62,323 nt of DNA. Source: a virus. Taxonomy: Duplodnaviria > Caudoviricetes. Shown here one piece after another: positions 8,266 through 44,981 of the stretch. Positions within the stretch are counted from its first letter, which is position 1. The number at the start of each line of letters is the position of its first letter. A program made the translations under genes and the position numbers. The notes beneath the pieces were generated by a model. The model had not been told where the DNA came from. It searched no databases and saw only the letters and a program-made list of their open reading frames with translations. Location of the stretch: IMG/VR virus record IMGVR_UViG_3300032174_000007, positions 1-62,323 of that record. One strand, 5' to 3'.

Positions 8266-8450
8266 TTGGATCAAGGAACCTCTTGCGCTTGCGTCGCCAC
8301 AGAGCGGTCAGGCGGCGGGATCAGTTGCTTCATGTCTGCGAGCGTCCATCTCATACGTTTATCGAAATGGACACTCTCAGCGGGTGGCGGACTCTGATCA
8401 CCAGTGGCCACTGGGCAGCCAGATTCAGCGGGACTGGTCTCCATCTCAAT
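8265..8450 (-). mobile_element. L/R cassette copy with 57-aa ORF (8271..8444)
   Basis: L variant GAGACCAGTCCCGCT..CACTGGTGATCAGAG; R CCTGACCGCTCTG..CCTTGATCCAAATG. Confidence 0.8.
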
Positions 8451-9144
8451 ACTGCGAATACTCATCCCACTGCGTATTCACGCAGAACGTCCATGTCCCG
8501 GTCGCCGGTACCGTCGCTTGGATCACGAAGCCCTCGTTGTTGACAAGCTGCAACGGGAAGTCGCCGCCGTTCTTGGGATCATAGAGCACCGAGTTAGGCG
8601 CCACCAGCGCAGCACCGGCTGCTACCACCACACCGACCTCGATGGCACCGAGCGGATCGGTGTCAAGGGTCCTGGTGCCGGCCGTGTTCGTCGCCGTGGT
8701 GGCGATCATGATCTGGCCGACGCCGGTGGTTGCTTGGTTGGTTTTGAGCTTGCCGTTGTTGCCGGTGAGCGTGCCGGCGGTACCGCTGGTGTCCGACGCG
8801 GTGAACGCTCGAGCAGCAAACAGGCCAAAATTTGCGACCCCTGCGGCAAAGCCGGTGCCGGCATTGCCGGCGGAGAGCGTCACGCGCCGCACCACCGCAA
8901 CGCTTCCCGTCACGCTCGGGGTGTAGCGGAAAGCATAGACCGGAGCTGCTGCGCCCAGGCCCGCCGCCATGGTGCCGCTGCACAGCCCCTTGGCGTAGCT
9001 GCCCTGCAGGAGGTTGTAGTTGGGTACGACCGAGCCGGGTTGTGTGCCGCCGGTCAACGCATTGGGCGGCTGCTGCGCAGCGGCCGGAAGGCTGAGGAAC
9101 GCGGCGCACGCGAGGACGGCGAGACGACTGCGAAGGTATTTCAT
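8446..9144 (-). CDS. Signal-peptide-bearing beta-rich putative virion/decoration protein
   Basis: MKYLRSRLAVLACAAFLSLPAAA|QQ; Gly/Thr/Ala rich; 2 Cys in mature part. Confidence 0.65.
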   Translation of the reverse strand: MKYLRSRLAVLACAAFLSLPAAAQQPPNALTGGTQPGSVVPNYNLLQGSYAKGLCSGTMAAGLGAAAPVYAFRYTPSVTGSVAVVRRVTLSAGNAGTGFAAGVANFGLFAARAFTASDTSGTAGTLTGNNGKLKTNQATTGVGQIMIATTATNTAGTRTLDTDPLGAIEVGVVVAAGAALVAPNSVLYDPKNGGDFPLQLVNNEGFVIQATVPATGTWTFCVNTQWDEYSQY

Positions 9145-22300: not shown

Positions 22301-22444
22301 GGTAGCGGCTTTGTTGCTTGCGGTAGACTTGCTGGCCAAGGAACCGGATGGTGGAGGTGGGGGCACCGTTGAAGCAGGCGTGCAGGAGGGCGATGCAGGC
22401 GAGGTGGTATTCGGATTCGGTGATGATGGGGCGCGACGGGAAGG

Positions 22445-31661: not shown

Positions 31662-32405
31662 CTAGAACATCTTCAGGAAGGCAAAGCCGACCCGCTGCTC
31701 GGGCGTGGTCGAGATGACGGCCGCCGGGAGCGGAGCAACGATCGGCACCATCGCGCTCTGCGTGCTCTGCCAGTTGATGTGATGGTAGTAGATATCAAGG
31801 TTCCACCCTTGCGCCAGGATGAACTCGGTACCGGCCCCGACCGTCCAGCCTTGGTTGCCAAGCTTGAACGATTCGCCTACCGCAAGATAGGGCGACATCA
31901 GGGCTGCACCTGGGATGATTGCCAGATTGATGCCCTGTGATGGCGTTCCGGGTCCAGCCGTGCCCGGTTGCCCGATGCCGAGCAGATTGCCCATACCCAC
32001 GCCAGCCTTGACAATCACGCTCGCATCCCAATTCTTGCCGATGCCGACCTGAGCACCCAGGCCGTTGTTGGTCATGTTGGTTCCGAAATTACCCTCGCCC
32101 GCGAGGAAAAAGGAGCCGTTCCAGAACTGGTAGCCGCCCGTGAGCCCGATAATCCCGCCGCCGGCAAAGACGTTGTTGTTGATGCCGGAGGCTAGGATAT
32201 CGACGTTGGAGCCGAGGCCCTGCACGTTAAATCCGGCATAGAAGCCCGAGCAGGACGGCGCTATGCCGGGCGTGGTCGGGGTCATGATCACGCCCGCGGT
32301 GCAGACCGGCGGCACGTAAGGGTCCGCCTTGCGCAAGACCTTCAGGTCGGCGGCATGCGCCGTGGCGGCAAGCAGCAAGGCTGCCAGCGTTGCAAAAGCT
32401 TTCAT
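31662..32405 (-). CDS. Omp25/RopB-like outer-membrane beta-barrel
   Basis: Signal peptide AHA|ADL, SGFYAGFN, GGYQFW, GWTVGAGTEF, C-terminal Phe. Confidence 0.8.
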   Translation of the reverse strand: MKAFATLAALLLAATAHAADLKVLRKADPYVPPVCTAGVIMTPTTPGIAPSCSGFYAGFNVQGLGSNVDILASGINNNVFAGGGIIGLTGGYQFWNGSFFLAGEGNFGTNMTNNGLGAQVGIGKNWDASVIVKAGVGMGNLLGIGQPGTAGPGTPSQGINLAIIPGAALMSPYLAVGESFKLGNQGWTVGAGTEFILAQGWNLDIYYHHINWQSTQSAMVPIVAPLPAAVISTTPEQRVGFAFLKMF

Positions 32406-33314: not shown

Positions 33315-34220
33315 TCATTTTCCGAACGGATCGTCGCTGGTGATTCCATTCGGCAACTGCTTGACCGCCGCCTCGAAGGTCGCCCATGCATTGGTCTGTT
33401 GGCCTAGGCCGAGCTTGGCGTAGAGTTGCGCCAAGGTGCCGCTATCTCCCAAGGCAACCATCGCCTGCGCGATCTTCGCCAGCGGTGCCCCGCACGAGAT
33501 GAGAAACGAGATGAAGGCCATCCCGCAGCCGATGCTCTTGTAGTCCTGGTCGGTAGTCTCGGTGCGGTCCACCCAATTCGGCATTCCGGCTTTTGCCCAT
33601 GTCGGCGCGGAGGCAAAATCTGAAAGCGCATTGTTGCTCGCAACGGCGGCACACCAGCGCGACAGTGCCTCACCAGTCGAGAGACCGCAGAGTTGCGCAT
33701 TCATGGCACATTCCGACAGCTCGGCCTCGAACAGTGCCGAGCAACGGGCGGAGCTGCCAAATGCCGCGCAGACCTCAATGTTGCCGCCGTTCTTGTAGTC
33801 GCAGGCCATATGGTCCGCGCCGCCGGTTCCATCGGTTGCTCCGCCGAGCGCAAACACGATCACATTGGTTGGCGCGCCGGTCGTTCCGAATAGTTGATTG
33901 TTGAGCGCAACGATCCGATCGGCATCCGCCAGGAGGTCCTTGGCGTTCTGCAAACCCTCCGATCCTAACGAAGGGTCGTTGTAGACGCTAACTTTCCCCA
34001 CGGGCGACACCCCGAGCAGATTGGCGGTTCCGGTGTAGCTCGGCCAGTTGATTTTGGTCGGAGGAGGCGGCGCCGGCTGACGCAGAATAGCGACATCGGC
34101 CCTGATCTTGTTGGCGGCTGCCTGCAGCGTGTTGGCTTGCGACAACAGATCGGCCAATGCCGCGTTGGTGGACGGGGTAGCCGCGTCGAGGTGCTTGGGA
34201 TGGAAAAGCGGATGGCTCAT
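33315..34220 (-). CDS. Cys-rich protein, possibly zincin-like fold
   Basis: GGADH..AELSE..GEALSR; next to endolysin. Confidence 0.55.
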   Translation of the reverse strand: MSHPLFHPKHLDAATPSTNAALADLLSQANTLQAAANKIRADVAILRQPAPPPPTKINWPSYTGTANLLGVSPVGKVSVYNDPSLGSEGLQNAKDLLADADRIVALNNQLFGTTGAPTNVIVFALGGATDGTGGADHMACDYKNGGNIEVCAAFGSSARCSALFEAELSECAMNAQLCGLSTGEALSRWCAAVASNNALSDFASAPTWAKAGMPNWVDRTETTDQDYKSIGCGMAFISFLISCGAPLAKIAQAMVALGDSGTLAQLYAKLGLGQQTNAWATFEAAVKQLPNGITSDDPFGK

Positions 34221-34238: not shown

Positions 34239-34907
34239 TCACACGTCAGCCGACGGGATCGCCGGTAGCGCCCATGTGGCGCGCAATTGCTCTGCGGTGC
34301 CATTGAATAGCGAGAGGTCGGCGCCGCTCTCAAGCCCATCAAGCGTATGCGGCAACGGGCCGATGTCGTCGCCGGTATACTGCCACAGGAACGGCTTGGG
34401 CCACGGTAACGTCTCGCCGTTCGCATCAATATTTCGCCAACGGGGACCATATTCACAACCCCAGAGTGGGTGGGCAGCAAGGAATTCCCGCACGGCCGCA
34501 CTCGCCTGTGGCGCCAGCGACTTGATCACGTCGCCCGAATAGAGCCCACAGCGTCGCCCGATCGCCTGGTCAACGCGATCGAGAAACTCGATCACCATTC
34601 CGAGCGTCATCTGGCCGGTGCCCCCGGGATTGCGCTCCAAGTCGAGCCAACAACTCGTTTGCGGCTCGGGTGACACGAAGGAGAGGAAGCGGGTGGCCTG
34701 TGTGGCTACCTTCTCGCCGGTGTTGAATGCGTAGGCGCCCCATTTGAGACCGACGCCGAGCGCAAGATCGCGCCGCTGGTGGTAGAGCGGATCGGTCTGC
34801 TCGTTGCTACGGGTGGCACGATGGATGACGCCCACGCATTCGGTGTGGGCGAGCTTCCCGAAATCGACCGGATTCTGCGATCCCATGTCGGCGACGTAGA
34901 CGGTCAT
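34239..34907 (-). CDS. GH25 muramidase endolysin
   Basis: GVIHRAT, WGAYAF, WLDLE, LWQYTGD, DLS.F.G. Confidence 0.85.
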   Translation of the reverse strand: MTVYVADMGSQNPVDFGKLAHTECVGVIHRATRSNEQTDPLYHQRRDLALGVGLKWGAYAFNTGEKVATQATRFLSFVSPEPQTSCWLDLERNPGGTGQMTLGMVIEFLDRVDQAIGRRCGLYSGDVIKSLAPQASAAVREFLAAHPLWGCEYGPRWRNIDANGETLPWPKPFLWQYTGDDIGPLPHTLDGLESGADLSLFNGTAEQLRATWALPAIPSADV

Positions 34908-35599: not shown

Positions 35600-35678
35600 A
35601 GTCCCTCATGCTGATCGTCATCCCGCAGATAGGCAACTTTTCTATCCCCACGCCGAGAAGCCAGCTGGAATGCTGCAA
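35400..35678 (-). CDS. Small protein with C-terminal TM helix (holin/antiholin-like)
   Basis: YVKWVVSAVPVAAALSSILKAWW. Confidence 0.5.
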   Translation of the reverse strand: MQHSSWLLGVGIEKLPICGMTISMRDYDEEVAKMPRRRKTTAQEIQQWRYGSEIDRRRHASRQSAIRYVKWVVSAVPVAAALSSILKAWWHG

Positions 35679-36316
35679 TTGAACGGGCTCGCGCCGACAT
35701 TCAATGTACTGTTCCCGCCGCTGGAATCAAACAGTGTATACGGGAAAGCCGGATTGCCGGCAAACACTGCCGAGATGTCGATGCCGCCGACGCCGGTTGC
35801 GGGATTTGCAGCACCGCTGTTGTTCCATATTCCGCAGTTGAGGCTGTACCACGCGAGATTGGCGGTCAGGTCAACGGCAAAGTCTGCTGGTTTTGCGCTC
35901 GAAAAGCTTTGGCAGGAGATCGGAAATGTATTGTGATACCAGAGCGAGCCTGATCGATTAGGCAGGCATCCGAAGGCAGCGGTAGTATTGGCGGCCGTAA
36001 GCACCTGTGCAGCTGTTGCAAATCCGATGTATGTGTTGGCTCCGAAATCCGCATTCTTGGCGATTTCGAAAATCCATTTGCCCGAGCTGTGCGATTTGGT
36101 CCCGCGCACGCCGGCCGTCGCGCTGGTCGGATCGGTGGCGATGAGATTGCCGCCCGACAACGTGACTGCTGCCGCCTTGTCGGTCGGGCTCCAGGTCGAG
36201 AAGGTTGCTCCCGCTGGCAGCATCCATGAAGTGAACAGAAATCCTTGCGCGAGCACCGAATAGGAGACGCAGGCGAGACCAATCGCCAGCAGCGCTCGCC
36301 TGACGAAAGGCATCAT
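35642..36316 (-). CDS. Signal-peptide SPRY/ConA-like beta-sandwich protein
   Basis: MMPFVRRALLAIGLACVSYSVLA|Q; TWSPTDK..TLSGGNL..SGKWIFE..PAGFSAW. Confidence 0.7.
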   Translation of the reverse strand: MMPFVRRALLAIGLACVSYSVLAQGFLFTSWMLPAGATFSTWSPTDKAAAVTLSGGNLIATDPTSATAGVRGTKSHSSGKWIFEIAKNADFGANTYIGFATAAQVLTAANTTAAFGCLPNRSGSLWYHNTFPISCQSFSSAKPADFAVDLTANLAWYSLNCGIWNNSGAANPATGVGGIDISAVFAGNPAFPYTLFDSSGGNSTLNVGASPFNCSIPAGFSAWG

Positions 36317-36993
36317 TGCAGCGCCTTCACCAGATAGGTCGAGACGGTGTTGATCCTGGTGATCTGCAGGAGGAAAACGTGGCCGTTGGTGGTATCGAAG
36401 GCATCCCCGGTGTTCGAGCCGACGGTGAAGCCTGTGAGTGTGAGCGTGCCGGCGCTGCCGTTGTTGGTCACCAGGATGAGGCACGAGGCGCTACTGGCGG
36501 GCGCGGTCAGGGTCGCGTTGCCGCCGTTGGTGTAACTCTCGAGCGGTCCCAAGCCGCAATCGATCGTGAAGCTGCCGGCCCCGGCCACGGGCGGGGTGAC
36601 GTTGGCCCCGCCGGAGAGCGTCTGGTCGGCGGCGGTCAGGCTCGCGAGCGCCGCGTTGCAGCCGATGGTGCCGGGCACATAGGCGAGCGCAGAGTTGGCC
36701 CCGGTGCAGGTCGGGATCGGGAGGCCGACGGCGGTGTTGAGATTGTTGCCCACCCAGGTCGTGTTGTTCAGGAGCGGAGGCAGGCCACCGGGACCGAGGA
36801 TAGCCTGCTGCACGAAGGCCGTCGAGGCGCAACGATTATCGCTAGTGCCGGGCGGAGCGGTCGGGCAGATGGTGTTCTGCGCCCAGGCGGGGAGGATAAC
36901 CGGCCGCACCGGCCCCGGCGAGCCCACGAAGAGCAACGCTAGCAGCCAGAGTATGAGGCCGGCGCCAAAGATGATATTTCGGAGTCTGACCAT
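36313..36993 (-). CDS. Signal-peptide tail-fibre-like protein
   Basis: Hydrophobic leader AWA|Q; PTAPPGTSD..ASTAFVQ fibre motif; 6 Cys. Confidence 0.7.
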   Translation of the reverse strand: MVRLRNIIFGAGLILWLLALLFVGSPGPVRPVILPAWAQNTICPTAPPGTSDNRCASTAFVQQAILGPGGLPPLLNNTTWVGNNLNTAVGLPIPTCTGANSALAYVPGTIGCNAALASLTAADQTLSGGANVTPPVAGAGSFTIDCGLGPLESYTNGGNATLTAPASSASCLILVTNNGSAGTLTLTGFTVGSNTGDAFDTTNGHVFLLQITRINTVSTYLVKALQ

Positions 36994-37006
36994 CCGAGCG
37001 GCTCCA

Positions 37007-37120
37007 AGATTTGGATCAAGGCTTTGCTTGCGGTTGCCTCAACTCGGAACGGTCACCAAGCGCCCCGGATGAGGGCCTCTGATCACCAGTCGGGTTCCCG
37101 AGCGGAACTTGTCCCATCAA
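37007..37120 (-). mobile_element. Minimal (empty) L/R cassette
   Basis: Encodes MGQVPLGNPTGDQRPSSGALGDRSELRQPQAKP (37016..37117). Confidence 0.88.
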
Positions 37121-37122
37121 TT

Positions 37123-38028
37123 CTACCATCCGAGTGGCTCCATCGGCATCGGATCAGGTGAGAACACGCCTCCGGAGCCATGTCCCAGAACCGGGTTGCT
37201 GGTCACGGTGAAGATCGTGCTCGAGTTGGGCGCGCTGTTGGCATAAAGGCCGGTCGCGGCGTTCATGATCGTGTTGCGGTGGATCGTGAAGGTCACTGCC
37301 TCACCGGTCAGACCATAGAAGCCAGCCGTTGCCACAATGCCCTTGTTGTGCAGCGCGGTAAGGTTTGCCGCATTGCCGGTCAGGCCATACGCACCTTGCA
37401 CCGCAGCCAATGCCGGCCGTTGCAGGTTGGCGAGCTCGCCGGTGAGGCCGTACACGCCGGGCGCAGCCGAGAGCACCGGGCGCTTGACCCACTGTAACCC
37501 CGCCGCTTGGCCAGCCAGGGCATAACTGCCGGCTACCGGGGAAGTCTGCCGGGCGCGGTTGACGACGATGCTCTGTCCGGTGAGGCCATAGGCCCCGGCC
37601 GGAACCGGGAGGTTGTACTTGACAACGACCGACAGACCCACGGCTTTGCCAGCGAGCGCGTACGATCCCTGCGCCATTAGGGGCGCGCGGGTGGCCGTGA
37701 TCGGCTTGCCTATCAGGGCGTAGGCGCCGGTGACGGTCGCAATGCCTTTGCGCAGCACGCTCAGGCCGACGGCCTTCCCGGTCAGGGAATAGGCACCCTG
37801 CGCCATCAACGGGGTCCGGGTGGCCGTGATCGGCTTGCCGGTGAGTGCGTAGGCACCGGTCGCGGTGATCAGCGGAGTCCGGATGACCTGCATCCCGTTG
37901 GCAAAACCGGTGAGGCTGATCGAACCTTGGGCGGCGGCAAGGTTGCGCAGCGCTGCCGGAATCGCAGCTTCGCCCAGGAGGGCGTAGCTCCCGGCCGGAA
38001 CCTTCAGCGTAATGTGCCTGCGCGGCAT
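37123..38028 (-). CDS. Repeat protein with ~11 G(A/S)Y(A/G)L(T/A)G units
   Basis: ~20-24-aa periodic repeats; DNA repeat with 129-nt offset (37691/37820). Confidence 0.7.
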   Translation of the reverse strand: MPRRHITLKVPAGSYALLGEAAIPAALRNLAAAQGSISLTGFANGMQVIRTPLITATGAYALTGKPITATRTPLMAQGAYSLTGKAVGLSVLRKGIATVTGAYALIGKPITATRAPLMAQGSYALAGKAVGLSVVVKYNLPVPAGAYGLTGQSIVVNRARQTSPVAGSYALAGQAAGLQWVKRPVLSAAPGVYGLTGELANLQRPALAAVQGAYGLTGNAANLTALHNKGIVATAGFYGLTGEAVTFTIHRNTIMNAATGLYANSAPNSSTIFTVTSNPVLGHGSGGVFSPDPMPMEPLGW

Positions 38029-38032
38029 GGAT

Positions 38033-38458
38033 TTATGAGAGTTGCAGCACGCCGTTGGTGGCGTCGAACGCCACGGTGAACGAATCACCGGAGTTGAGCG
38101 TTACCTCCGAGCTGTAGTCGTACCAGGAGATGAGTGGCTTCAAGGGCGAAGTCGGCGTCGAATCATAGAGGACCACATAGCGGAATGGCCCGACCGAACC
38201 ACCGGAGGCGGTGAAGGTCACGTTCCCGGAAATGAGCTTATAGACGCCCGCTGTCTGCGTCGATGAGACTTGCGTGCTCGTCCCGCCCCCTGCCGTGTAG
38301 CCGTTGCCGGCGGCGATCTCGGTGATATTGGCAAAGACGGAGTTGGTGGCGACCGGAGCCACATCGGAGAGCATGACCTTGAGCGTATCTCCCCCGAGGT
38401 TCATCACCCCATTGGCAGCGTTGGCAACGAAGGCATTGAATTTGTTGTAGGCGGCCAT
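38033..38458 (-). CDS. Putative virion fibre/filament subunit
   Basis: YNKFN.F..DTLKVML..EI..GNGYTAGG..FTASGG..Y.VLY pattern. Confidence 0.65.
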   Translation of the reverse strand: MAAYNKFNAFVANAANGVMNLGGDTLKVMLSDVAPVATNSVFANITEIAAGNGYTAGGGTSTQVSSTQTAGVYKLISGNVTFTASGGSVGPFRYVVLYDSTPTSPLKPLISWYDYSSEVTLNSGDSFTVAFDATNGVLQLS

Positions 38459-38468
38459 GGCTTATCTC

Positions 38469-38648
38469 CTACAGATTAGATGAGATTGCGAATGCAGCAA
38501 CCATGCTGATCCCAATCCACGCCGGAAGCAGTAGTGGGAAGAACATCAACGCAATGCCGTCAGGTAGTCTCGCCGCATTTGCAAGACCGACGCAGTACAA
38601 AGCCATGCCCGTAAAACCTCCAACCATAACAATCAAACCGTTCAACAT
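38469..38648 (-). CDS. Small 2-TM moron
   Basis: Lower GC; AGGAG RBS; hydrophobic. Confidence 0.6.
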   Translation of the reverse strand: MLNGLIVMVGGFTGMALYCVGLANAARLPDGIALMFFPLLLPAWIGISMVAAFAISSNL

Positions 38649-38662
38649 GGAAGTTCTCCTGT

Positions 38663-39349
38663 TTATAGGAACTCGAGAATGGTCAGCGAATTGCCGGAGC
38701 CTTGCGAGGCAACGGCGTTCCAGGCGCAGTTCACGCGGATACGGTTGCGGGCGATGATACGCTTCTCCTGGCCCGGCAGGATGCCCATGGAGCCGGCACC
38801 CCCGGAGAGCGCAGCAAGGTTGGCTGGGCACACGGAGATCAGGATCGGCTCCGGATTGGGGTTGTGGAACAGGATGCCGCGGCGCATCGGGTTGGCGGCG
38901 ATGACCTGCTGCGAGCTGGTGCCGAGGTTGCTCACCTGAATGCCGTTGGGCGACGGTATCGGCACGCCGTAGGTCAGGCTGGTGAGCGGCATCGGGGCCG
39001 GCTGCGCGGCATTATAGCCGGTGAAGTTGAAGATGGTCAGCGGGTTTGTGCTCCCGGAATCGGCCACCGCGTTCCACCCGCTGTTGAGTGAAATCGCAGC
39101 ATCGCTGAAGATTGCTTCTTCCTCCTGCGGATAGATGAGAATACCCCCAGCGCCGGAGATGGGCGTCAGGTTGGCCGGAGTGATGCGGATGATCTGCGAA
39201 CCCGGATTGTGGAACACCACCCCGGCGCGGGTGGAGTCGGGGCCGAGCACCGAGGTCGATGAGGTTCCGAGCGTCGGGAACGCGATGGCGATCGGACCGA
39301 GCACCGGCACGTCATAGGCGAGCGAGGCAAGGGGCGATGTGCCGGACAT
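38663..39349 (-). CDS. Two-domain tandem-repeat virion protein
   Basis: Duplicated LGTSS..R.G..FHNP..PANL..GAG..I.P..WNAVA..N.LTI. Confidence 0.7.
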   Translation of the reverse strand: MSGTSPLASLAYDVPVLGPIAIAFPTLGTSSTSVLGPDSTRAGVVFHNPGSQIIRITPANLTPISGAGGILIYPQEEEAIFSDAAISLNSGWNAVADSGSTNPLTIFNFTGYNAAQPAPMPLTSLTYGVPIPSPNGIQVSNLGTSSQQVIAANPMRRGILFHNPNPEPILISVCPANLAALSGGAGSMGILPGQEKRIIARNRIRVNCAWNAVASQGSGNSLTILEFL

Positions 39350-39392
39350 CACAGTGCGCTCGGCAGGCAGTAGAGCGGGATGGTGTTGGCTA

Positions 39393-40283
39393 TCATGGGA
39401 GGGTGACAATCTTATACGTAAGCACAAGTTGGCCACTGCCATCGCCTGGTGTCACAGAATTAACATCAATCTGAAAACCAGTTCCGATCCCTGGTTGCGC
39501 TCCACTGGTCGATGTCGCATTTCCTGTCGTTCCAGTTTTGTAGCCGGCACCATTGCTGGTTAAGTGATACGTTAAGACCGCGCCACCACCGTCAACAGTA
39601 TCAACGACATACCTTGCAAGAATATCTGTTACAAAACCATAGCCAGTTACTTGCCCTGTATCCCCAATTACATATCCTGTTCCGGCATTTCCAGCAGTAA
39701 CACTGCTCGTCAGGATCGCCCCATATTTTATGTAATCCTCTACAGAATTGCTGATAACAAGAGATTGATTTGAAATATCAGAAAAAAGAGCGGCACCACC
39801 AGGGGTGAAAGCAGTTATCGGACCATAACCACCCGGAGTAGATGAACTAAAAACTACCGATGAAGCTATAACCTCAAATAGTCCTCCGTCGCCTGCAACC
39901 GTGCGCCCACTCCCATTTTGATAACTTAAAATAATATTTCCGGCATCAGCCCCTGGGCTTCCTGTTGGTACTGTTCCAACGTGATTATACCATTCCACAA
40001 AAATCGGAACGATCGCTTTTCCTGCTCCCGGAGCAGCTAAGACAGTCTGTGGCGCAGAGAATAGATGATTGATCTGACTAGCCGTCAAAGAAACTGTTGT
40101 AGTAAACGTCGTCAAGGGCACCTTGAAATTCGCCCCGGTCTTGAACCCGACGAGGTTTTCCGTCCCGCTCGGCGTGCCAAGCAGCGGAAAGTCTGTGCTG
40201 TTGCTCCACGGCACATTGGCCGCGATGGCAACGCCAACAGCGATAGTAGCAACCGCAAGCAGGCTAACCAGGAAGCGCTTCAT
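39393..40283 (-). CDS. Signal-peptide putative fibre/adhesin, chimeric GC
   Basis: MKRFLVSLLAVATIAVGVAIA|A; GTGY..GD/GAGY repeats. Confidence 0.65.
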   Translation of the reverse strand: MKRFLVSLLAVATIAVGVAIAANVPWSNSTDFPLLGTPSGTENLVGFKTGANFKVPLTTFTTTVSLTASQINHLFSAPQTVLAAPGAGKAIVPIFVEWYNHVGTVPTGSPGADAGNIILSYQNGSGRTVAGDGGLFEVIASSVVFSSSTPGGYGPITAFTPGGAALFSDISNQSLVISNSVEDYIKYGAILTSSVTAGNAGTGYVIGDTGQVTGYGFVTDILARYVVDTVDGGGAVLTYHLTSNGAGYKTGTTGNATSTSGAQPGIGTGFQIDVNSVTPGDGSGQLVLTYKIVTLP

Positions 40284-40288
40284 GGCCC

Positions 40289-40474
40289 TTACTCCGTAAT
40301 CATCACGTCACCGCCCTCGGTGATCATCGTATCGCCTGCGGCCTCGGTGATCATCACATCAGGTGCCCGCGGCGGCGTGCCATGCGTCCAGGCGCCTGCG
40401 GTCGCCAGCCAGACAACTAGGAAGCCGATCGCGAAGGCGATCATTCCGAGGCCAACTTTGTAACCGAGGTTCAT
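40289..40474 (-). CDS. Small signal-peptide protein with three MITE repeats
   Basis: Hydrophobic leader then DVMITEAAGDTMITEGGDVMITE. Confidence 0.6.
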   Translation of the reverse strand: MNLGYKVGLGMIAFAIGFLVVWLATAGAWTHGTPPRAPDVMITEAAGDTMITEGGDVMITE

Positions 40475-40562
40475 TGCCCTGGGCGCATCATCATTTGATA
40501 GAATGATGTTCACTCCGTTACCGGAAGGGTTCCAGTCAGAAGACTTCATGCGACGACCTCTG

Positions 40563-41273
40563 TCATTGCCATGCCGAGAATCCTGATGGAACGGTAAAAG
40601 TGAACTGCGAAGAAATGGTCCTTAGCGTTCCGGTTGGAGTGGCCGAGTTCGCAGTAAACGCCGCAAAGGCCGCATTGGTTGGAAACAATGTGCTGATATT
40701 CATGCCCTGGGAATTGGTTGCCGGATTTCCGGGGTTGCTACTGCCATACCAACTACCTGCTCCGTTCTTGTCAAACCACGCTTTGCTATTCCCAAAATCG
40801 ACCGCGACACGCACGACATCGCCAGCCGCAAAGCTCGTGAAACCCGTAGATGCCGAGAACGAACCATTGAACCAAACGCCAGGATTTATGACGTAGATGA
40901 TCGCCGCACCAGTCGCGCTGCTGGCGATCGTGCTCAAGGTCGCTGCACCGGTAGCTATCCCCACCCCCGTATCGCCGCCAGCAACGGTGCCACCAAGAAG
41001 AACCTCGAAATACAGCTTGCTTGCATTGTGGCTGGTCGTATTCCGAACGGCACCATCACTAGTGTTTGTGCCAGCTGCCGTCAGATTAGCGTTCGACAGC
41101 GTGATGTTGGCCGACTTGTCCGAAGGGTTCCAATTCGACGCCACTTGCGCCGCAGCAACGGTTGGGGTGCAAAAGCCGGGCGAACAGCCATTGAACTGCG
41201 CCTGCGGCGACTGCAATCCAAGTATTGCAAAGCAGAGGGTGAGGAAAGCCGCTACCGAGACTCTGGCGATCAT
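40563..41273 (-). CDS. Signal-peptide SPRY/ConA-like protein, paralog of 35642..36316
   Basis: PQA|Q; WNPSDK..TLSNANL..KLYFEV..PSGFSAW. Confidence 0.7.
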   Translation of the reverse strand: MIARVSVAAFLTLCFAILGLQSPQAQFNGCSPGFCTPTVAAAQVASNWNPSDKSANITLSNANLTAAGTNTSDGAVRNTTSHNASKLYFEVLLGGTVAGGDTGVGIATGAATLSTIASSATGAAIIYVINPGVWFNGSFSASTGFTSFAAGDVVRVAVDFGNSKAWFDKNGAGSWYGSSNPGNPATNSQGMNISTLFPTNAAFAAFTANSATPTGTLRTISSQFTFTVPSGFSAWQ

Positions 41274-41740
41274 GTGAGATCAGTCCCAGTCAGGTAGAAA
41301 TCACAGGTCGCCGCCGTTCCCTGCCCGGTAGTCAGTGACAGGTAGACCGTGTTGACGGTATAGCGCGTGGTAGCGATGTTCGCCGCAAGCGTCAGCGAGA
41401 GCAGGATCGTTGCGCTACTGAGCGCGGTATAGACCTGCGCGGCAGCAACCAGCGCTGTCCCCCCTTTGCTGGCGGCCGGATAGACGCCGCCGACCGCGAG
41501 CGTCAGAGATGCGCTGCAATTGGTGACCTTGATCGCAAGCGGAGTCCATGCCGTGATCGACGAGGGGATTGCGCACGCCTGATCGGCGGTAGAGTTGAAA
41601 TTGGCCGCACGGATCGAGCATAGCACGCGATCGGTATTGACTGCCGTGTTGGTGATCGTTGCCGAGCCGCCGGCAAATTGCGCCAGCGCGGGCGCAATTG
41701 CGAGCCAGAAGGCGAAGAGAAAGGAGGCAATGCGGTTCAT
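41270..41740 (-). CDS. Signal-peptide beta-sandwich protein
   Basis: MNRIASFLFAFWLAIAPALA|Q; 4 Cys. Confidence 0.7.
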   Translation of the reverse strand: MNRIASFLFAFWLAIAPALAQFAGGSATITNTAVNTDRVLCSIRAANFNSTADQACAIPSSITAWTPLAIKVTNCSASLTLAVGGVYPAASKGGTALVAAAQVYTALSSATILLSLTLAANIATTRYTVNTVYLSLTTGQGTAATCDFYLTGTDLT

Positions 41741-41744
41741 ATCA

Positions 41745-43226
41745 TCACCAGCGCGTACAGGAGAACTTATGCCCGGTCGTCGCAGCGATAACCGAGAGTG
41801 CCGTGTTCATGCCGAAACCCATCGGAGAGCTATAACTCGACAAACCCGAGAAGGTCGTAGCAGCCGGCGCGGCGAGCGGATAGGAGGCGGTTGCTGCAGC
41901 AACTGCCGTGCCGGTAAAGGAAATCCATAGCGGCTCGCCTGAGCCCGCACTGGCGTCGATATTGGCAATGGTGAAACCGTGGATGGCGGCATTTGCCGTG
42001 AAGGCATTCTGCGCCGTGCCGCCGGAAGTAATTGTGCCAGAGCAATCGGTCGGGGTGGTGTTGACATTGCCGGTGACGGTGCCGATCGCGGCGGTTCCGG
42101 CCACCAGCCCCACGGTCGAATCGTTCGATACGGTGACGCGCGGGATACCTGAACCGCTCGCGCCCGTGCCGGTCACGGTGTTGGCGCCGCCAAACTGCGC
42201 GACGTTGACGGATTGATTCGCGGGCAGCGCCACACTGTCGGGTGTGACCAGAAGCTTGGTCATCGACGCAATACCTTGGACACTGATCACATTAGCAGAG
42301 GCAGTGCCGGCAGTCCCCGGCGCGCTGCCTGCAATCGTGGTAGTGTCCTGCCCGACCGCCACGCGAGCGGAGCCGGTGCCCACGGCCCCCGCGCCCGCAA
42401 GCGCCGTTGCAGCGTTTACCCCCACAATGGCCACGCCGTTAGTCGTGCCCGGCGTGGTCTGATCAACCCCGACCTTGCCGATGAGATTTGTTCCGGCCGG
42501 CACCGGGCCTTGCACGGCCGCAAGCACCTGCGAATCAAATACGCGGGTCTCGCCTGCGGTCGTCAGCGACAACGGATCGGTCTGGCCGGTCGTATAGGTT
42601 GGTGCCCCTGTCGTGACGGCGCCTTGCACCAGCGGACCAAGTTGGCCGGAAGTCGTCGAACCTTGCGCATACCCAGCCGCTCCGCCGCCCGCCTTGAGGT
42701 TCACCAGAAGATTCCCGGCGTTGTCCATCTGCAGCGGCGAGGCATTCCCGGGCGTGATGGTCGTGGGCGTGGTCTGAAACTGTGCCCCCATCAGTATCGA
42801 GTTGGCCGGGCTCGCCGCGTTCTGTCCTACAAAATCAAAGACGCCGCCGATGTTGCCGACGATGCGCGAGGTCCAATTGCCGGATTGTGAAACCGCCGGG
42901 ACGTTCGTGATGAAGGCGTTCATGCCAGGCACAAGCACAGCACCGGGCGAGGTGCCGTAGTTCGCCATGGCGCCGAGCGTACCGCCGCCCCAAGCGGTGA
43001 TGCTGGAGACCCACGGCACGGTGCCCTGGGTGACCGATCCGCCGCCCCCGCCGCTCGCATTGGTGCAGAGGTTGCCGTGGGCATCGACCGTGAACGGCCC
43101 CGGGTTACCCGCATTGAAGGTCGGCGAGTTGCATGTGCTCACGACCAAGCCGGTCGTGTTCTGCGCCTGCGCTGGGAGCGCGAGCAAGCCCAAGAGGATC
43201 GACGCGGACACAAGATATCTGCGCAT
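41745..43226 (-). CDS. Signal-peptide fibre-like protein
   Basis: MRRYLVSASILLGLLALPAQA|Q; G/T/A-rich, PAGTNLIGKV; 4 Cys. Confidence 0.75.
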   Translation of the reverse strand: MRRYLVSASILLGLLALPAQAQNTTGLVVSTCNSPTFNAGNPGPFTVDAHGNLCTNASGGGGGSVTQGTVPWVSSITAWGGGTLGAMANYGTSPGAVLVPGMNAFITNVPAVSQSGNWTSRIVGNIGGVFDFVGQNAASPANSILMGAQFQTTPTTITPGNASPLQMDNAGNLLVNLKAGGGAAGYAQGSTTSGQLGPLVQGAVTTGAPTYTTGQTDPLSLTTAGETRVFDSQVLAAVQGPVPAGTNLIGKVGVDQTTPGTTNGVAIVGVNAATALAGAGAVGTGSARVAVGQDTTTIAGSAPGTAGTASANVISVQGIASMTKLLVTPDSVALPANQSVNVAQFGGANTVTGTGASGSGIPRVTVSNDSTVGLVAGTAAIGTVTGNVNTTPTDCSGTITSGGTAQNAFTANAAIHGFTIANIDASAGSGEPLWISFTGTAVAAATASYPLAAPAATTFSGLSSYSSPMGFGMNTALSVIAATTGHKFSCTRW

Positions 43227-43290
43227 AGCGGGTCTCCTGAGACTAGAGATGGTTGGAATCTATTTTAGCCTCGCCGTCAAGAAGTCTTTG

Positions 43291-44757
43291 TCAGGGAACC
43301 CCGGCAAAGATGATCTTGTTGCGGATTTGCGTCGGCTGCACGATCGAGTGGGCGTTCCCGGAGCCGAAGGTGATGGGGTTCATCGTGGGCGTATAACTTG
43401 GGATCGTTACACTGGCGAAGCCCGCAGCGAGACCCGAACCTGTGAACGGGCCAACCGCCCCACCGGCCGCTACGACCACCTGCTGATTCGTGTTGATGGT
43501 GCCTGGCACATAGCTGTTGCTCGCCGTCGGCGTTATCGAGATCACCGGCAACTGCCCCGCCGTCAGGGTCTGGCTTTTTGCTCCACAGGAGGCATTCAGG
43601 TAGGCAGGATTCCCGACGAGGCAGAAGGTGGTGTTGAGATTGACGTTGCCGGTATCAAGGCCGGCATAGACCACGCCAGCGGAGTTCGGCAAAGCAAAGG
43701 TGCCATCCTGGGCAGTGCCGTAGGGGAACAGCTGGCATTGGGTCGCGTTGGCCGAAGCGTTGCCACCGGCAATGGTGATGCTGGTGCCTCCGACCGAGGC
43801 GATGGTCTGGCCGGTCGCGATGGCTCCGGATCCCGGGCTCTCGATGATCCAGCCGGTGCCGAGACCAGGATAGGAGGTCGAACCTATCCCGGAGATGGTC
43901 GAGGACCCCATGGTGATGGTGCAGGGCACGACCGGGGCGATGACGGCGAGAAGAGCCGAGTAGGTCGTGCGGCTGATGGCGGCGCCGTTCTCGAGCTTCC
44001 AGTTGGTCGGGGCCGCGAAGGTGGGCCAGTCCACCTCCATCCCGATCGGCAGTTGCGAGACGGTGATGCCCAGAAGGCCCTGCGCCGCTGCGATGGTCGG
44101 GGCGGCCACCACCGGCTGCATGGCAGAAGAAACCAAGGCGGAGCTCGGCTGCGCTGCGATCGGATTGCAGCCGGTCGAATCAAAGCCAATGAGGTTGTTG
44201 GCGCGCTGGCTTGCCTCTGGGAGAAAGCCGAGCGGGTTGCATGTGTCGTCCACCGGAACCTGCAAGGCGCGGGCAACCTGGGTGGCGACCCCTTGGAATT
44301 CCAGCACCACCAGGTCAAGTGCCTGCTCCACCGCCTGCGGGAAGAAACTGCCTTGATTCCGCAGCGGCGTGGTCTGTAGGAGCGGCACGGTACGGGTGAT
44401 GGCGAGCTGAGTCCCCATGGCGATCGGGGAGCCTGAGAGCGGATAGGTGACGGTGCCGCCGATGCCCCAAATCTGGCCAGCCGGCGGAGCGTTCAGGGTG
44501 AGCGTGTAGGTGGTTGTGCCGAGGATTGTACGGGCGCCGGAGGCATCGATATAGGTCACCACGATGTCGTTCGGCGAGACCCCTATGAACGGGAAGTTGA
44601 ACACGGTCGCCGAGCCGTTGCCGAGCGCGGTGACGGAGGAAACGGTCGAGGAGACGGTGGCGCGGGCGGATATTGCATAAAGCCCCACAAGGATCGCCAG
44701 CACGGGGCCCAGAGCAACCGCTGCTCCAATGATTGCGCGTTCGAGAATCTGGGTCAT
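43291..44757 (-). CDS. Tail fibre (T7 gp17-like N-domain + tail collar) with N-terminal signal peptide
   Basis: ARA|TVSST..GNGSATVFNFPF..TR..Q..L.NQG.F.P..VE.ALD; collar PIG..APTNW..NG.AISRTTYSAL. Confidence 0.85.
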   Translation of the reverse strand: MTQILERAIIGAAVALGPVLAILVGLYAISARATVSSTVSSVTALGNGSATVFNFPFIGVSPNDIVVTYIDASGARTILGTTTYTLTLNAPPAGQIWGIGGTVTYPLSGSPIAMGTQLAITRTVPLLQTTPLRNQGSFFPQAVEQALDLVVLEFQGVATQVARALQVPVDDTCNPLGFLPEASQRANNLIGFDSTGCNPIAAQPSSALVSSAMQPVVAAPTIAAAQGLLGITVSQLPIGMEVDWPTFAAPTNWKLENGAAISRTTYSALLAVIAPVVPCTITMGSSTISGIGSTSYPGLGTGWIIESPGSGAIATGQTIASVGGTSITIAGGNASANATQCQLFPYGTAQDGTFALPNSAGVVYAGLDTGNVNLNTTFCLVGNPAYLNASCGAKSQTLTAGQLPVISITPTASNSYVPGTINTNQQVVVAAGGAVGPFTGSGLAAGFASVTIPSYTPTMNPITFGSGNAHSIVQPTQIRNKIIFAGVP

Positions 44758-44981
44758 GAGAACCTCTTGCTTACGACCGGCCCGGTGAAAAAGGGAACGC
44801 CCAACTGATCGCGCATGATCGAGAAGTCGATGCGGAAGTCCTCCCGCTCGGCCGCGCGCATCAGGTCCATCAGCTCGCCCAAGGTCTCGATGGCGCGAGT
44901 TTTGTAGTCGGCGGCTTTCTCCTCGGCCGTGGCGGGAGTGTTGCGCCGGGCATCGAGGTCTACGATACGGTCGTCTGGCAT
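44754..44981 (-). CDS. Hypothetical protein
   Basis: Coupled to tail fibre start. Confidence 0.6.
   Translation of the reverse strand: MPDDRIVDLDARRNTPATAEEKAADYKTRAIETLGELMDLMRAAEREDFRIDFSIMRDQLGVPFFTGPVVSKRFS

What the first reader, a model, noticed from the sequence alone, without database searches (positions are those of the whole stretch)
35642..44757. Tail-region proteins carry Sec signal peptides and even cysteine counts: possible periplasmic virion-appendage pathway
Seen: ORFs at 35642, 36313, 39393, 40289, 40563, 41270, 41745 and 43291, plus 8446 in the head cluster, begin with a basic-hydrophobic-AxA-type leader. Six are predicted to cleave before Gln. Mature Cys counts are 4, 6, 0, 0, 2, 4, 4, 6 and 2, all even. 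Capsid, nozzle and the interleaved 37123, 38033 and 38663 proteins have no leader. Known: tailed-phage virions normally assemble in the cytoplasm, and disulfides form in the periplasm via DsbA. Inference: these fibre and lectin proteins are exported, disulfide-bonded, and attached at or after lysis, or they act at the host surface (receptor masking, adhesion).
Basis: partly seen in the sequence, partly recalled or inferred. Interest (0 to 1): 0.9.

Follow-up and report, generated by a model that had tools for sequence, protein, structure and literature searches.

The report
Phage tail fibres carrying export signals
A complete, uncultured short-tailed soil phage puts ordinary bacterial secretion signals and paired cysteines on its tail fibre and on most of its fibre-like and lectin-like proteins, so this host-recognition gear very probably folds in the periplasm and not in the cytoplasm where the rest of the particle is built.

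Summary
The window is a whole 62,323-base phage record. Seven of the nine named ORFs start with a classic basic/hydrophobic/A-x-A leader. 43291 has a longer, membrane-helix-like leader. 40289 has an internal membrane helix, not a leader. Mature Cys counts are exactly as reported.

The pattern extends well beyond this window:
- In the 41745 family, 95 of 119 homologues carry a leader by my rule, and 94 of those 95 have an even mature Cys count.
- In the 43291 family, the leader ends at A-x-A directly before the residue where leaderless relatives and the epsilon15 tailspike begin.

Export and disulfide folding are therefore well supported. How, or whether, the exported fibres join the particle is inferred only. 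One supporting fact comes from a cultured Cellulophaga phage, where three unrelated leader-bearing proteins are annotated as virion proteins from MS/MS.

No trained predictor and no experiment was available. Ten literature searches found no description of Sec-leader tail fibres in tailed phages. This scan has noted the same phenomenon before on other DNA, in at least 157 genomes.

The parts
43291..44757 (-). Tail fibre, 488 aa. Residues 1-33 (nt 44659-44757) are a hydrophobic leader ending ARA. Residues 34-170 are an epsilon15 gp20 / BPP-1 Bbp9 / T7 gp17-type tail-docking domain. A phage tail collar motif lies at 243-273. The mature part has 6 Cys.
   Evidence: PHROG tail profiles match from profile position 2 at residue 34, E = 2e-19. 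Pfam Collar scores 24.9 against a cut-off of 24. tblastn to the epsilon15 tailspike gives 34% identity, E = 7e-7, with epsilon15 codon 14 aligned to residue 46. No second copy of the domain is found in the window at E <= 0.01.
41745..43226 (-). Leader-bearing fibre, 493 aa. It has a 21-aa leader (AQA^QN), a small N-terminal module with a Cys32-Cys54 pair, a Gly run, a repeat-rich shaft, and a C-terminal jelly-roll tip (389-493) with invariant Cys395 and Cys490.
   Evidence: The AF2 model of the tip has pLDDT 86.3. Foldseek's best match is the Ena1B disulfide-linked pilus subunit, E = 8.5e-4, TM 0.51, with other jelly-rolls below it.
41270..41740 (-). Leader-bearing protein, 156 aa (ALA^QF), with 4 mature Cys.
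   Evidence: A leaderless relative lies in locus L050 (50% identity over 129 aa).
40563..41273 (-). Leader-bearing SPRY/lectin-like protein, 236 aa. The leader is followed by Q-F-N-G-C..G-F-C (2 mature Cys), then the domain. It is a paralogue of 35642.
   Evidence: Pfam SPRY E = 9e-5 but below the cut-off (23 against 26.3). phrog_10080 E = 2e-18. The paralogues share 34% identity over 190 aa. The family has 4,333 hits, mostly leaderless.
40289..40549 (-). Small membrane protein, 86 aa. It has one helix at residues 28-46 and C-terminal DVMITE-like repeats. It is not an N-terminal leader unless Met26 is the start.
39393..40283 (-). Leader-bearing protein, 296 aa (AIA^AN), with 0 Cys. Its third-position GC is 0.41 against 0.66-0.86 in its neighbours, so it looks recently acquired.
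   Evidence: It has no Pfam, PHROG or PDB relatives. Atlas hits are viral hypothetical proteins only.
38663..39349 (-). Leaderless protein, 228 aa from Met32 of the ORF, with 2 Cys.
38469..38648 (-). Small ORF of 59 aa with two hydrophobic helices (holin-like by shape only).
   Evidence: No homology test was run.
38033..38458 (-). Leaderless protein, 141 aa, 0 Cys, phrog_644 (unknown function).
37123..38028 (-). Leaderless repeat protein, 301 aa from the internal Met, 0 Cys.
36313..36993 (-). Leader-bearing protein, 226 aa (long leader, AWA^QN), with 6 mature Cys.
35642..36316 (-). Leader-bearing SPRY/lectin-like protein, 224 aa (VLA^QG), with 4 mature Cys. Its start overlaps the stop of 36313 (ATGA).
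8446..9144 (-). Leader-bearing protein in the head-gene cluster, 232 aa (AAA^QQ), with 2 mature Cys. Its mature domain equals the C-terminal tip of 789-aa leader fibres in other phages.
   Evidence: It shares 51% identity over 187 aa with the ORFs L027/L029 9233-11602.
31662..32405 (-). Context gene: an Omp25/31-like outer-membrane beta-barrel protein with a leader (AHA^AD), a C-terminal Phe and 2 Cys. It shows that the host has two membranes and that the phage uses Sec export.
   Evidence: Pfam OMP_b-brl 21.7 against a cut-off of 28.7. In one search, sources name relatives 'outer membrane immunogenic protein' or 'opacity protein-like surface antigen', and 7 of the 24 other hits carry PF13505.
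34239..34907 (-). Context gene: a leaderless GH25 endolysin, which therefore depends on a holin lesion in the inner membrane.
   Evidence: Pfam Glyco_hydro_25 E = 1e-13. PHROG endolysin families.

Best explanation
The leader-bearing genes encode the phage's own host-recognition gear: one tail-docking fibre plus fibre, tip and lectin-like proteins. These proteins are made as Sec preproteins.

Proposed sequence of events:
1. The proteins are translocated unfolded across the host inner membrane.
2. Signal peptidase I cuts them at A-x-A, often exposing Gln.
3. They fold in the periplasm, and presumably oligomerise there, with disulfide bonds made by the host Dsb system.
4. Heads, the tail hub and internal proteins are built in the cytoplasm as usual.
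5. The two sets meet when the holin breaches the inner membrane, or just after lysis. The mature fibre N-terminus is identical in position to that of leaderless fibres, and it docks on the tail then.

What is shown: leader anatomy, conservation of the leaders, the Cys pairing statistics and the docking-domain homology.

What is inferred: actual export, cleavage, oxidation and late docking.

My odds: export of most of these proteins about 0.85; late docking of at least the 43291 fibre about 0.5-0.55.
For: 1. Leader anatomy and clustering in the window. The rule flags 5 of 12 genes here against 2 of 52 elsewhere, and 74 of 6,400 shuffles.

2. The 41745 family.
- 95 of 119 homologues have a leader of divergent sequence.
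- 94 of those 95 have an even mature Cys count (2 to 14).
- 47 of the 95 cleave before Gln.
- Cys395 and Cys490 are invariant in 16 of 16 and 59 of 59 aligned sequences.
- Clearly leaderless members have 0-2 Cys.

3. The 43291 family.
- Of 77 relatives, 21 have leaders by motif, plus 2 more by eye. These end ARA, SRA or another A-x-A directly before T-V/I-S/T.
- 50 leaderless relatives begin M-T-V/I-S-T at that same residue.
- The epsilon15 tailspike starts within about a residue of the predicted cleavage site.
- On a tree of 77 N-domains the leader state needs only 3 changes. Leader clades of 17 and 6 are kept through deep divergence.

4. Gene position.
- 43291 sits where a podovirus fibre gene sits, after the SLT-bearing 867-aa and the 2,530-aa internal-type proteins.
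- In L066 a leader-bearing homologue directly follows a 1,905-aa giant protein.
- No leaderless copy of the docking domain is found in the window.

5. Other phage contigs carry arrays of 3-6 consecutive leader proteins in the structural module, right after the capsid and Bbp16-like cement genes. Examples are L002, L007, L027, L037 and L050. L016 has a leaderless one in that place.

6. Precedent for the principle. In cultured Cellulophaga phage phi18:3, gp085, gp086 and gp087 all start with leaders followed by Gln. The record annotates them as virion, structural and tail proteins 'based on experimental MS/MS proteomics analysis'. The seven other MS-listed proteins that I read have no leader.

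7. The endolysin is leaderless, so a holin lesion is expected.
Against: - No trained predictor (SignalP) and no experiment was available. My rule is a heuristic.
- The window's own 43291 leader has no net positive n-region and an h-region of about 23 residues. This fits an uncleaved membrane anchor as well as a signal peptide. A subclade keeps a conserved amphipathic stretch between the h-region and A-x-A, which a plain leader does not need.
- Cys parity is not significant in the 43291 family (17 of 21 against 30 of 50, Fisher p = 0.11). Three leader forms have 1 or 3 Cys, including the one from a Bradyrhizobium chromosome.
- The 40563 family shows no parity signal and is mostly leaderless. 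Only 9 of 150 are flagged, and some of those flags are doubtful.
- 39393 has no Cys at all.
- Nothing here shows that exported fibres reach the particle.
- The Cellulophaga proteins are not homologous to these (best E = 0.059), and MS of purified virions can pick up co-purifying proteins.
- An earlier check in this scan of a wider form of this claim on other DNA partly fell.
Confidence: 0.5

Rival explanations
1. The proteins are exported but are not virion parts. They act on the infected or lysogenic cell envelope. Possible roles are masking or modifying the receptor to block superinfection or to stop progeny sticking to debris, binding polysaccharide in the periplasm, or serving as adhesins. 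This would be like the small exported exclusion proteins encoded beside fibre genes in known phages, but much larger and built from fibre modules.
For: - Export and oxidative folding are supported.
- The phage also encodes an exported outer-membrane protein of clearly non-virion type.
- Several leader proteins are small single lectin-like domains (35642, 40563, 41270, 8446).
- 39393 has foreign composition, like a moron.
- No route from periplasm to particle has been shown.
Against: - The 43291 protein keeps a full tail-docking domain whose start coincides with the cleavage site, and it is the only copy found in the genome. A decoy would not need that domain, and a fibre-less particle would result.
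- Leader genes occupy the structural-module slots where leaderless fibres sit in relatives.
- The array takes up about 9 kb of a 62-kb genome.
- MS/MS annotation places unrelated leader proteins in Cellulophaga phage virions.
Confidence: 0.27
2. The hydrophobic N-termini are not cleaved export signals. Instead they are membrane anchors or assembly helices. The fibres would be tethered to the inner membrane in either orientation, or the segment would be buried in the tail or removed by a phage protease, and the whole particle would still be finished in the cytoplasm.
For: - The window's 43291 leader has net charge 0 before a 23-residue hydrophobic stretch and an Arg after it, so its orientation is ambiguous.
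- Related leaders are 28-35 residues long with a conserved amphipathic part.
- A published note reads 'signal peptides' on Porphyromonas phage capsid proteins as probably cleaved by the prohead protease (PMC10367356, passages read).
Against: - The other six leaders are short and canonical (18-24 residues, basic n-region, A-x-A).
- The near-perfect even-Cys rule in the 41745 family (94 of 95), and the invariant Cys pairs, make sense only outside the reducing cytoplasm.
- Leaders end exactly at the domain start with A-x-A.
Confidence: 0.15
3. This is a gene-calling artefact. The true starts lie downstream and the leaders are not translated.
For: - In-frame GTG/TTG codons exist inside or after some leaders.
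- For 8446 the longest ORF start is certainly wrong.
- For 40289 the start is uncertain.
Against: - The leader ATGs have Shine-Dalgarno-like sites or ATGA coupling.
- Leaders persist as n-h-c peptides with in-frame indels across 95 of 119 and 23 of 77 homologues at 40-90% identity.
- No ATG lies at the mature starts.
Confidence: 0.03

Closest known systems
Salmonella phage epsilon15 tailspike gp20 (AY150271.2, CDS 20017-23229); Bordetella phage BPP-1 Bbp9; T7 gp17-type podovirus fibres
   Same: The N-terminal tail-docking domain is shared (34% identity over 123 aa, E = 7e-7 to epsilon15; PHROG tail families E down to 2e-19). The gene sits after the internal virion proteins. Portal, capsid and Bbp16-like cement are of the same epsilon15/BPP-1 type.
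   Different: Those fibres start directly with the docking domain and are made in the cytoplasm. Here a 33-residue hydrophobic leader ending ARA precedes the domain, and the mature part has 6 Cys.
Cellulophaga phage phi18:3 gp085, gp086, gp087 (NC_021794.1; cultured podovirus, Pachyviridae)
   Same: Three consecutive large late proteins begin with leader peptides followed by Gln. The record annotates them as virion, structural and tail proteins from MS/MS. This is the nearest experimental hint that leader-bearing proteins end up in tailed-phage particles.
   Different: There is no sequence homology to the window's proteins (best E = 0.059). The host is Bacteroidota. Their Cys counts are 0, 1 and 3, so there is no pairing. 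I read the record's annotation, not the underlying paper. I have not seen anyone comment on the leaders in print.
Filamentous-phage adsorption protein pIII (recalled, not tested here)
   Same: It is a phage receptor-binding protein made with a Sec leader and disulfide-bonded in the periplasm before joining the virion.
   Different: Inoviruses assemble at and extrude through the membrane without lysis. The phage here is a tailed, lytic-type particle built in the cytoplasm. No homology is known.
Exported accessory proteins encoded next to tail-fibre genes: lambda Lom and Bor, T5 Llp, Cor of T1/phi80 (recalled, not tested here)
   Same: They are Sec-exported phage proteins in or near the tail region that act on the host envelope. 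The window's 31662 outer-membrane protein is of this type.
   Different: Those are small outer-membrane proteins or lipoproteins unrelated to fibres. Here the exported proteins are fibre modules, including the docking fibre itself. No lipobox is present (and my reading of the leaders).
Signal-peptide proteins of Porphyromonas gingivalis phages obeying the Bacteroidetes Q-rule (Matrishin et al. 2023, PMC10367356; Q-rule paper PMC10653852; passages read)
   Same: These are phage genes with SPase I leaders that expose N-terminal Gln. They are read as adaptation to the host's secretion system.
   Different: Those are five genes of unknown function plus capsid and spanin genes. Tail fibres are not mentioned in the passages I read. 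The Q-rule is described there as exclusive to Bacteroidetes. Here the host clues point to Bradyrhizobium-like Alphaproteobacteria, yet 6 of 9 window leaders and 47 of 95 homologues expose Gln.

Membership tests
Sec / signal peptidase I signal peptide | Basic n-region, uncharged hydrophobic h-region of about 7-15 residues, small residues at -3 and -1, no Pro at +1, within the first 15-40 residues | tested here: met
   My heuristic at score >= 5.5 flags 35642, 36313, 39393, 41270, 41745 and 8446, plus the 31662 outer-membrane protein. 40563 is borderline (4.3, Pro at -3). 43291 is not flagged (net charge 0, h-region about 23 residues). 40289 is not N-terminal. The rule is not a trained predictor.
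Sec / signal peptidase I signal peptide | Leader character conserved in homologues while leader sequence diverges | tested here: met
   95 of 119 homologues of 41745. 21 by motif plus 2 by eye of 77 relatives of 43291. 27 of 59 ORFs in viral loci.
Sec / signal peptidase I signal peptide | Actual translocation and cleavage | not testable with these tools
   This needs reporter fusions or N-terminal proteomics.
Lipoprotein (signal peptidase II) signal | Lipobox L-[AS]-[GA]-C at the end of the h-region | tested here: not met
   None of the nine leaders has it, by my reading. The only lipobox-like hit in 30.5-35.8 kb lies inside gene 33315.
Tat signal | Twin-arginine S/T-R-R-x-F-L-K motif that is consistent across homologues | tested here: not met
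   41745 starts M-R-R-Y-L, but homologues have MKR, MRK, MKK or MRF n-regions. The motif is recalled.
Periplasmic disulfide-bonded (Dsb substrate) proteins | Even number of Cys and conserved Cys pairs in the exported part | tested here: met
   Window: 6 even, 0 odd, 1 zero among flagged proteins, against 12 even, 27 odd, 18 zero among unflagged. 41745 family: 94 of 95 even, with Cys395 and Cys490 invariant in 59 of 59. The signal is weak in the 43291 family (17 of 21 against 30 of 50, p = 0.11) and absent in the 40563 family.
Periplasmic disulfide-bonded (Dsb substrate) proteins | Disulfides present in the mature protein | not testable with these tools
   This needs non-reducing gels or MS.
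epsilon15 gp20 / T7 gp17-type tail-docking fibre | Homologous N-terminal docking domain | tested here: met
   phrog_1640 E = 2e-19, with residues 34-168 on profile positions 2-128. tblastn to epsilon15, Pelagibacter podophage fibres and BPP-1 Bbp9.
epsilon15 gp20 / T7 gp17-type tail-docking fibre | Docking domain at the extreme N-terminus of the primary translation product | tested here: not met
   33 extra residues precede the domain. The domain would be N-terminal only after cleavage at ARA^T.
epsilon15 gp20 / T7 gp17-type tail-docking fibre | Presence in the virion | not testable with these tools
   The phage is uncultured.
SPRY / concanavalin-like lectin domain (35642, 40563) | Pfam SPRY above the gathering score | tested here: inconclusive
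   23.0 bits against a cut-off of 26.3 for 40563, and no Pfam hit for 35642. PDB sequence hits to RanBP9/10 SPRY have E = 0.005-0.02.
Outer-membrane beta-barrel, Omp25/31-like (31662) | Pfam OMP_b-brl, leader, C-terminal aromatic residue | tested here: inconclusive
   Pfam scores 21.7 against 28.7. 7 of the 24 other hits carry PF13505, and 7 are named 'opacity protein-like surface antigen' or 'outer membrane immunogenic protein'. The protein ends in Phe.

The most novel reading that the evidence does not exclude
A two-compartment assembly line for tailed phages. Heads and tail hubs are built in the cytoplasm. The whole host-recognition set (docking fibre, shaft/tip fibres, lectins) is exported by Sec, trimmed by signal peptidase, often capped by N-terminal Gln, and oxidised by the host Dsb system. 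It clicks onto the particle only when the holin joins the two compartments. The selective gain would be disulfide-hardened fibres for life in soil. The route would be widespread in uncultured soil and aquatic phages of several morphotypes.
Probability: 0.45. Interest if true: 0.9.

Novelty: new variant of a known kind. Interest (0 to 1): 0.75.

Why it matters
Textbook tailed-phage assembly is entirely cytoplasmic. Annotators even use the absence of signal peptides as a sign that a protein is of phage and not bacterial origin (PMC6199706, passage read).

If receptor-binding proteins of a large group of environmental phages mature in the periplasm, several things follow:
1. Virion completion depends on host Sec, signal peptidase and Dsb functions, and on the order of the lysis steps.
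2. These fibres cannot be produced correctly in the cytoplasm for structural work or for engineering host range.
3. Pipelines that discard leader-bearing proteins as 'host' or 'moron' genes will miss the true receptor-binding proteins.
4. Disulfide-stabilised fibres may explain particle persistence in soil.

The idea is directly testable on a cultured relative or an inducible prophage.

Tried and rejected
- Near-identical DNA in cultured phages: none.
- tblastn of 41745 against 50,697 phage records: no match. The family is known only from metagenomes.
- Scan of 185,579 species genomes with the 41745 alignment and with the 31662 outer-membrane protein: 194 and 97 pattern matches, none confirmed. 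This gave no host from that route. The only host clues are one relative named from a Bradyrhizobium chromosome and the Omp25/31-type names.
- Full-length AF2 model of 41745: poor (pLDDT 47.6). Its wide structure search gave only generic jelly-roll matches with Z <= 7.1. The tip domain alone folded well (pLDDT 86.3), but Foldseek gave one match at E <= 0.001 (Ena1B, TM 0.51) among many jelly-rolls. The fold class is known; the function is not.
- Sequence search of solved structures: nothing for the 41745 profile or for 39393, and weak SPRY hits for 40563.
- Atlas search for 39393: viral hypotheticals only, scores below 0.8.
- PHROG scan of six leaderless and two leader-bearing relatives plus two locus ORFs: no informative family.
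- Lipoprotein and Tat readings: rejected (see the membership test).
- Cys-parity test in the 40563 family: no signal (3 of 9 against 74 of 141 even). My rule also missed obvious leaders there (for example P0345), so that count is rough.
- N-terminal domain shared between leaderless and leader forms of the 41745 family: a short-query BLAST gave P0112 against P0092 at E = 4e-6, but in a database of only ten sequences. This is suggestive only.
- Complex prediction, the look-up of sequencing runs and read laying were not used, because none would separate the rival readings.

Literature: ten searches found no paper describing Sec leaders on tail fibres of tailed phages. I read passages of PMC8951688, PMC3556154, PMC13001222 (plus its section 12), PMC6199706, PMC12656738, PMC10367356 and PMC10653852. 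Supplements were closed and may hold per-gene SignalP tables, for example in PMC10367356. The paper behind the Cellulophaga MS/MS annotation was not found or read.

Rows dropped:
- The window's own proteins were left out of the family counts.
- 6 of 77 relatives of 43291 were left unclassified by the motif rule.
- P0198, an N-terminal fragment, was left out of the tree.

Full report
WHAT THE WINDOW IS. The 62,323-base window is an entire virus record rated 100% complete. Almost all of its genes lie on the minus strand. It encodes:
- a portal 31-33% identical to those of epsilon15-like podoviruses;
- an HK97-type major head protein and a protease;
- a Bbp16-like cement protein of the BPP-1 type;
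- an 867-aa protein with an SLT transglycosylase domain and a 2,530-aa protein without Pfam matches;
- a leaderless GH25 endolysin.
It has no tRNA and no near relative among 50,697 deposited phage records.

THE OBSERVATION. Between the endolysin region and the giant internal-type proteins lie twelve minus-strand genes (35642-44981). I read every N-terminus together with its upstream bases.
- Six proteins have short canonical leaders, with a basic start, an uncharged hydrophobic core and small residues at -3/-1. They are 35642-36316, 36313-36993, 39393-40283, 41270-41740, 41745-43226 and, in the head cluster, 8446-9144. The real start of the last one is the Met at 9144.
- 40563-41273 looks the same by eye but has Pro at -3 and falls under my cut-off.
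- 43291-44757 has a 33-residue N-terminal extension with no net positive charge and a hydrophobic run of about 23 residues, ending ARA.
- 40289-40549 has an internal helix (residues 28-46), not a leader.
- Six predicted sites expose Gln.
- The mature Cys counts are 4, 6, 0, 0, 2, 4, 4, 6, 2, exactly as reported.
- Starts are backed by GGAG/GAGG sites or ATGA overlaps, and each gene is the only open frame at its place.

Controls:
- My strict rule flags 5 of 12 genes in the segment against 2 of 52 elsewhere (p = 0.0018).
- Shuffled N-termini are flagged 74 times in 6,400.
- Flagged proteins have 6 even, 0 odd and 1 zero Cys counts. Unflagged ones have 12 even, 27 odd and 18 zero.
- The rule is a heuristic of mine. 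No trained predictor was available.

THE 41745 FAMILY. This protein has 1,581 relatives at E <= 0.001 among 8,000 scored candidates, all from metagenomes.
- Of the 119 best (the window's own left out), 95 have a leader by my rule.
- 94 of those 95 have an even number of Cys in the mature part, ranging from 2 to 14.
- 47 of the 95 expose Gln.
- The 24 unflagged are a mix of missed leaders, fragments and truly leaderless proteins. They are 14 even and 10 odd. The clearly leaderless ones have 0-2 Cys.
- The proteins are mosaics: leader, one of several small N-terminal modules, Gly runs, shared repeat blocks, and one of several C-terminal tips.
- The window's tip (residues 389-493) is conserved in 58 of the 119. 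Cys395 and Cys490 are invariant in 16 of 16 and 59 of 59 aligned sequences.
- The tip folds confidently as an eight-stranded jelly-roll (pLDDT 86.3).
- Its nearest solved folds are Bacillus Ena pilus subunits, phage tail-needle knobs, small plant-virus coats and lectins, at weak scores. The fold suits a receptor-binding tip but proves nothing.
- No relative was found in one genome each of 185,579 bacterial and archaeal species or in deposited phages.

THE 43291 FAMILY IS THE KEY. PHROG tail-fibre and tailspike profiles match 43291 from profile position 2 at residue 34 (E = 2e-19).
- tblastn finds the same domain in the epsilon15 tailspike, in Pelagibacter podophage fibres, in a Cobetia phage depolymerase and in BPP-1 Bbp9.
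- The epsilon15 gene starts 13 codons before the aligned stretch, which corresponds to residue 33-34 of 43291.
- Among 77 metagenomic relatives of the N-domain, 50 begin M-T-V/I-S-T, that is, directly with the domain.
- 21 by motif, plus 2 by eye, carry a leader of 20-46 residues. It ends ARA (9), SRA (4) or another small-x-small triplet immediately before T-V/I-S/T. Six relatives were left unclassified by the rule.
- Signal-peptidase cleavage would therefore give the same N-terminus that Met removal gives in the leaderless forms.
- On a tree of 77 N-domains the leader state needs 3 changes, with 0 of 500 label shuffles as low. Leader clades of 17, 6 and 1 are nested among leaderless forms. 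So the leader was gained or lost a few times and then kept through deep divergence.
- Cys parity here is only suggestive: 17 of 21 even against 30 of 50 (p = 0.11). Many leader forms are close kin with the same six Cys, and three have 1 or 3 Cys.
- One relative (P0178, with a leader) is named from an 8.5-Mb Bradyrhizobium chromosome. That is the only direct host clue.
- The window has no second copy of the docking domain at E <= 0.01.

SYNTENY IN OTHER PHAGES. Sixty-eight viral loci hold relatives of 41745.
- 27 of 59 homologous ORFs have leaders.
- In epsilon15/BPP-1-like contigs the leader genes follow directly on the capsid and cement genes (L002, L008, L027/L029, L032/33/35, L041).
- L016 has a leaderless homologue in that slot.
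- Arrays of 3-6 consecutive leader proteins of up to 838 aa occur in L002, L007, L009, L027, L037 and L050, often right after large Cys-free internal-type proteins.
- In L066 a leader-bearing 43291 homologue follows a 1,905-aa giant protein.
- The mature domain of 8446 equals the tip of 789-aa leader fibres (51% identity over 187 aa).
- Some leader forms carry, right after the leader, an N-terminal module that resembles the extreme N-terminus of leaderless forms. In the leader version a Cys pair sits in the aligned stretch. The statistics for this are weak.

THE LECTIN-LIKE PAIR. 35642 and 40563 are paralogues (34% identity over 190 aa). They share a SPRY-like domain that is below the Pfam cut-off.
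- The domain has 4,333 relatives at E <= 0.001.
- Most of the best 150 are leaderless and start with the domain at residue 2-5, or carry it in tandem inside giant proteins.
- Only a handful have leaders like that of 40563, and there is no Cys-parity signal.
- So the leader is a lineage-specific addition to a common phage module.

WHAT IT MOST LIKELY IS. The simplest reading of all this is that the proteins are real Sec substrates that fold and form disulfides in the periplasm. I put that at about 0.85 for the canonical leaders.
- The window's own 43291 leader is the weakest case, because it could be an uncleaved anchor.
- The presence of an Omp25/31-like outer-membrane protein shows that the host has two membranes and that the phage exploits Sec.
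- Whether the exported fibres then join the particle is inference.
- Points in favour: the retained docking domain with its exact junction, the lack of a leaderless copy, the structural-module position, and a leaderless endolysin that implies a holin lesion through which cytoplasm and periplasm would mix.
- A further point in favour is one experimental hint from elsewhere. In cultured Cellulophaga phage phi18:3 the three consecutive proteins gp085-087 begin with leaders followed by Gln. The record lists them as virion, structural and tail proteins from MS/MS, while the seven other MS-listed proteins that I read have no leader. They are not homologous to the window's proteins.
- Points against: nothing shows docking, and the exported proteins could instead act on the envelope, as receptor masks or polysaccharide binders. 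I give that rival about 0.27.

COMPARISON WITH WHAT IS KNOWN.
- Known Sec-exported proteins of tailed phages are lysis proteins (signal or SAR endolysins, spanins; passages) and small envelope proteins beside fibre genes (recalled).
- The only virion receptor-binding protein known to me that is exported and disulfide-bonded is pIII of filamentous phages (recalled).
- A paper on Bacteroides phage DGRs treats the lack of signal peptides as support for phage origin of a target protein.
- Matrishin et al. 2023 report leaders on capsid, spanin and five unknown genes of Porphyromonas phages that follow the Bacteroidetes Q-rule. The Q-rule paper calls that rule exclusive to Bacteroidetes.
- Ten searches found no description of leader-bearing tail fibres.
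- The Gln preference seen here in an apparently alphaproteobacterial setting is unexplained.

EARLIER NOTES OF THIS SCAN.
- The same genome has a separate first-reader note on the 43291 leader, with which my results agree.
- By words, 165 notes in at least 157 genomes describe the same phenomenon on other DNA, across short-tailed, long-tailed and contractile-tailed phages.
- One wider claim on other DNA partly fell on checking.
- I took two leads from these notes, the Matrishin paper and the Cellulophaga phage proteins, and checked both myself.

VERDICT. The proteins are new variants of known fibre families. If docking outside the cytoplasm is real, it is a new assembly route for tailed phages.

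Noticed in passing
window 31662-32405 (-): A phage-encoded outer-membrane beta-barrel protein (leader AHA^AD, ends in Phe, 2 Cys) lies downstream of the lysis genes. Sources name its relatives 'outer membrane immunogenic protein' or 'opacity protein-like surface antigen'. It is a Lom-like moron and a clue to a Hyphomicrobiales-type host.
   Followed up: partly
window 39393-40283 (-): Third-position GC is 0.41 against 0.66-0.86 in the neighbouring genes, and the codon-usage score is negative although this is the only open frame. It looks like a recent import from a lower-GC source into the fibre array.
   Followed up: partly
window 38469-38648 (-): A 59-aa ORF with two hydrophobic helices sits between the leaderless genes 38663 and 38033, in the middle of the fibre array. 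It is holin-like in shape, far from the endolysin.
   Followed up: no
window 40289-40549 (-): The first 20 residues resemble the start of the SPRY-like domain of 40563 and 35642, as if a remnant of a recombination event. The C-terminus has three DVMITE-like repeats.
   Followed up: no
window leaders; P0002-P0120: Gln stands at +1 in 6 of 9 window leaders and 47 of 95 family leaders. This recalls the pyroglutamate 'Q-rule', which the literature calls exclusive to Bacteroidetes, while the host clues here are alphaproteobacterial.
   Followed up: partly
P0131, P0133, P0134, P0136, P0137, P0150, P0151 (relatives of 43291): Their leaders share a conserved acidic-amphipathic stretch (E-x-x-N/D-L-x-W-L type) between the hydrophobic core and A-x-A. 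That is more sequence conservation than a plain signal peptide needs. The leader may have a second role.
   Followed up: no
window 37123-38028 (-): A leaderless, Cys-free protein made of about a dozen degenerate repeats of roughly 20 residues (G-x-Y-x-L-T-G type), interleaved with the leader genes. It might be the cytoplasmic partner or adaptor of the exported proteins.
   Followed up: no
window 33315-34220 (-): A 301-aa protein between the endolysin and the outer-membrane protein gene has 9 Cys, no leader and no family match. Its function is unknown.
   Followed up: no
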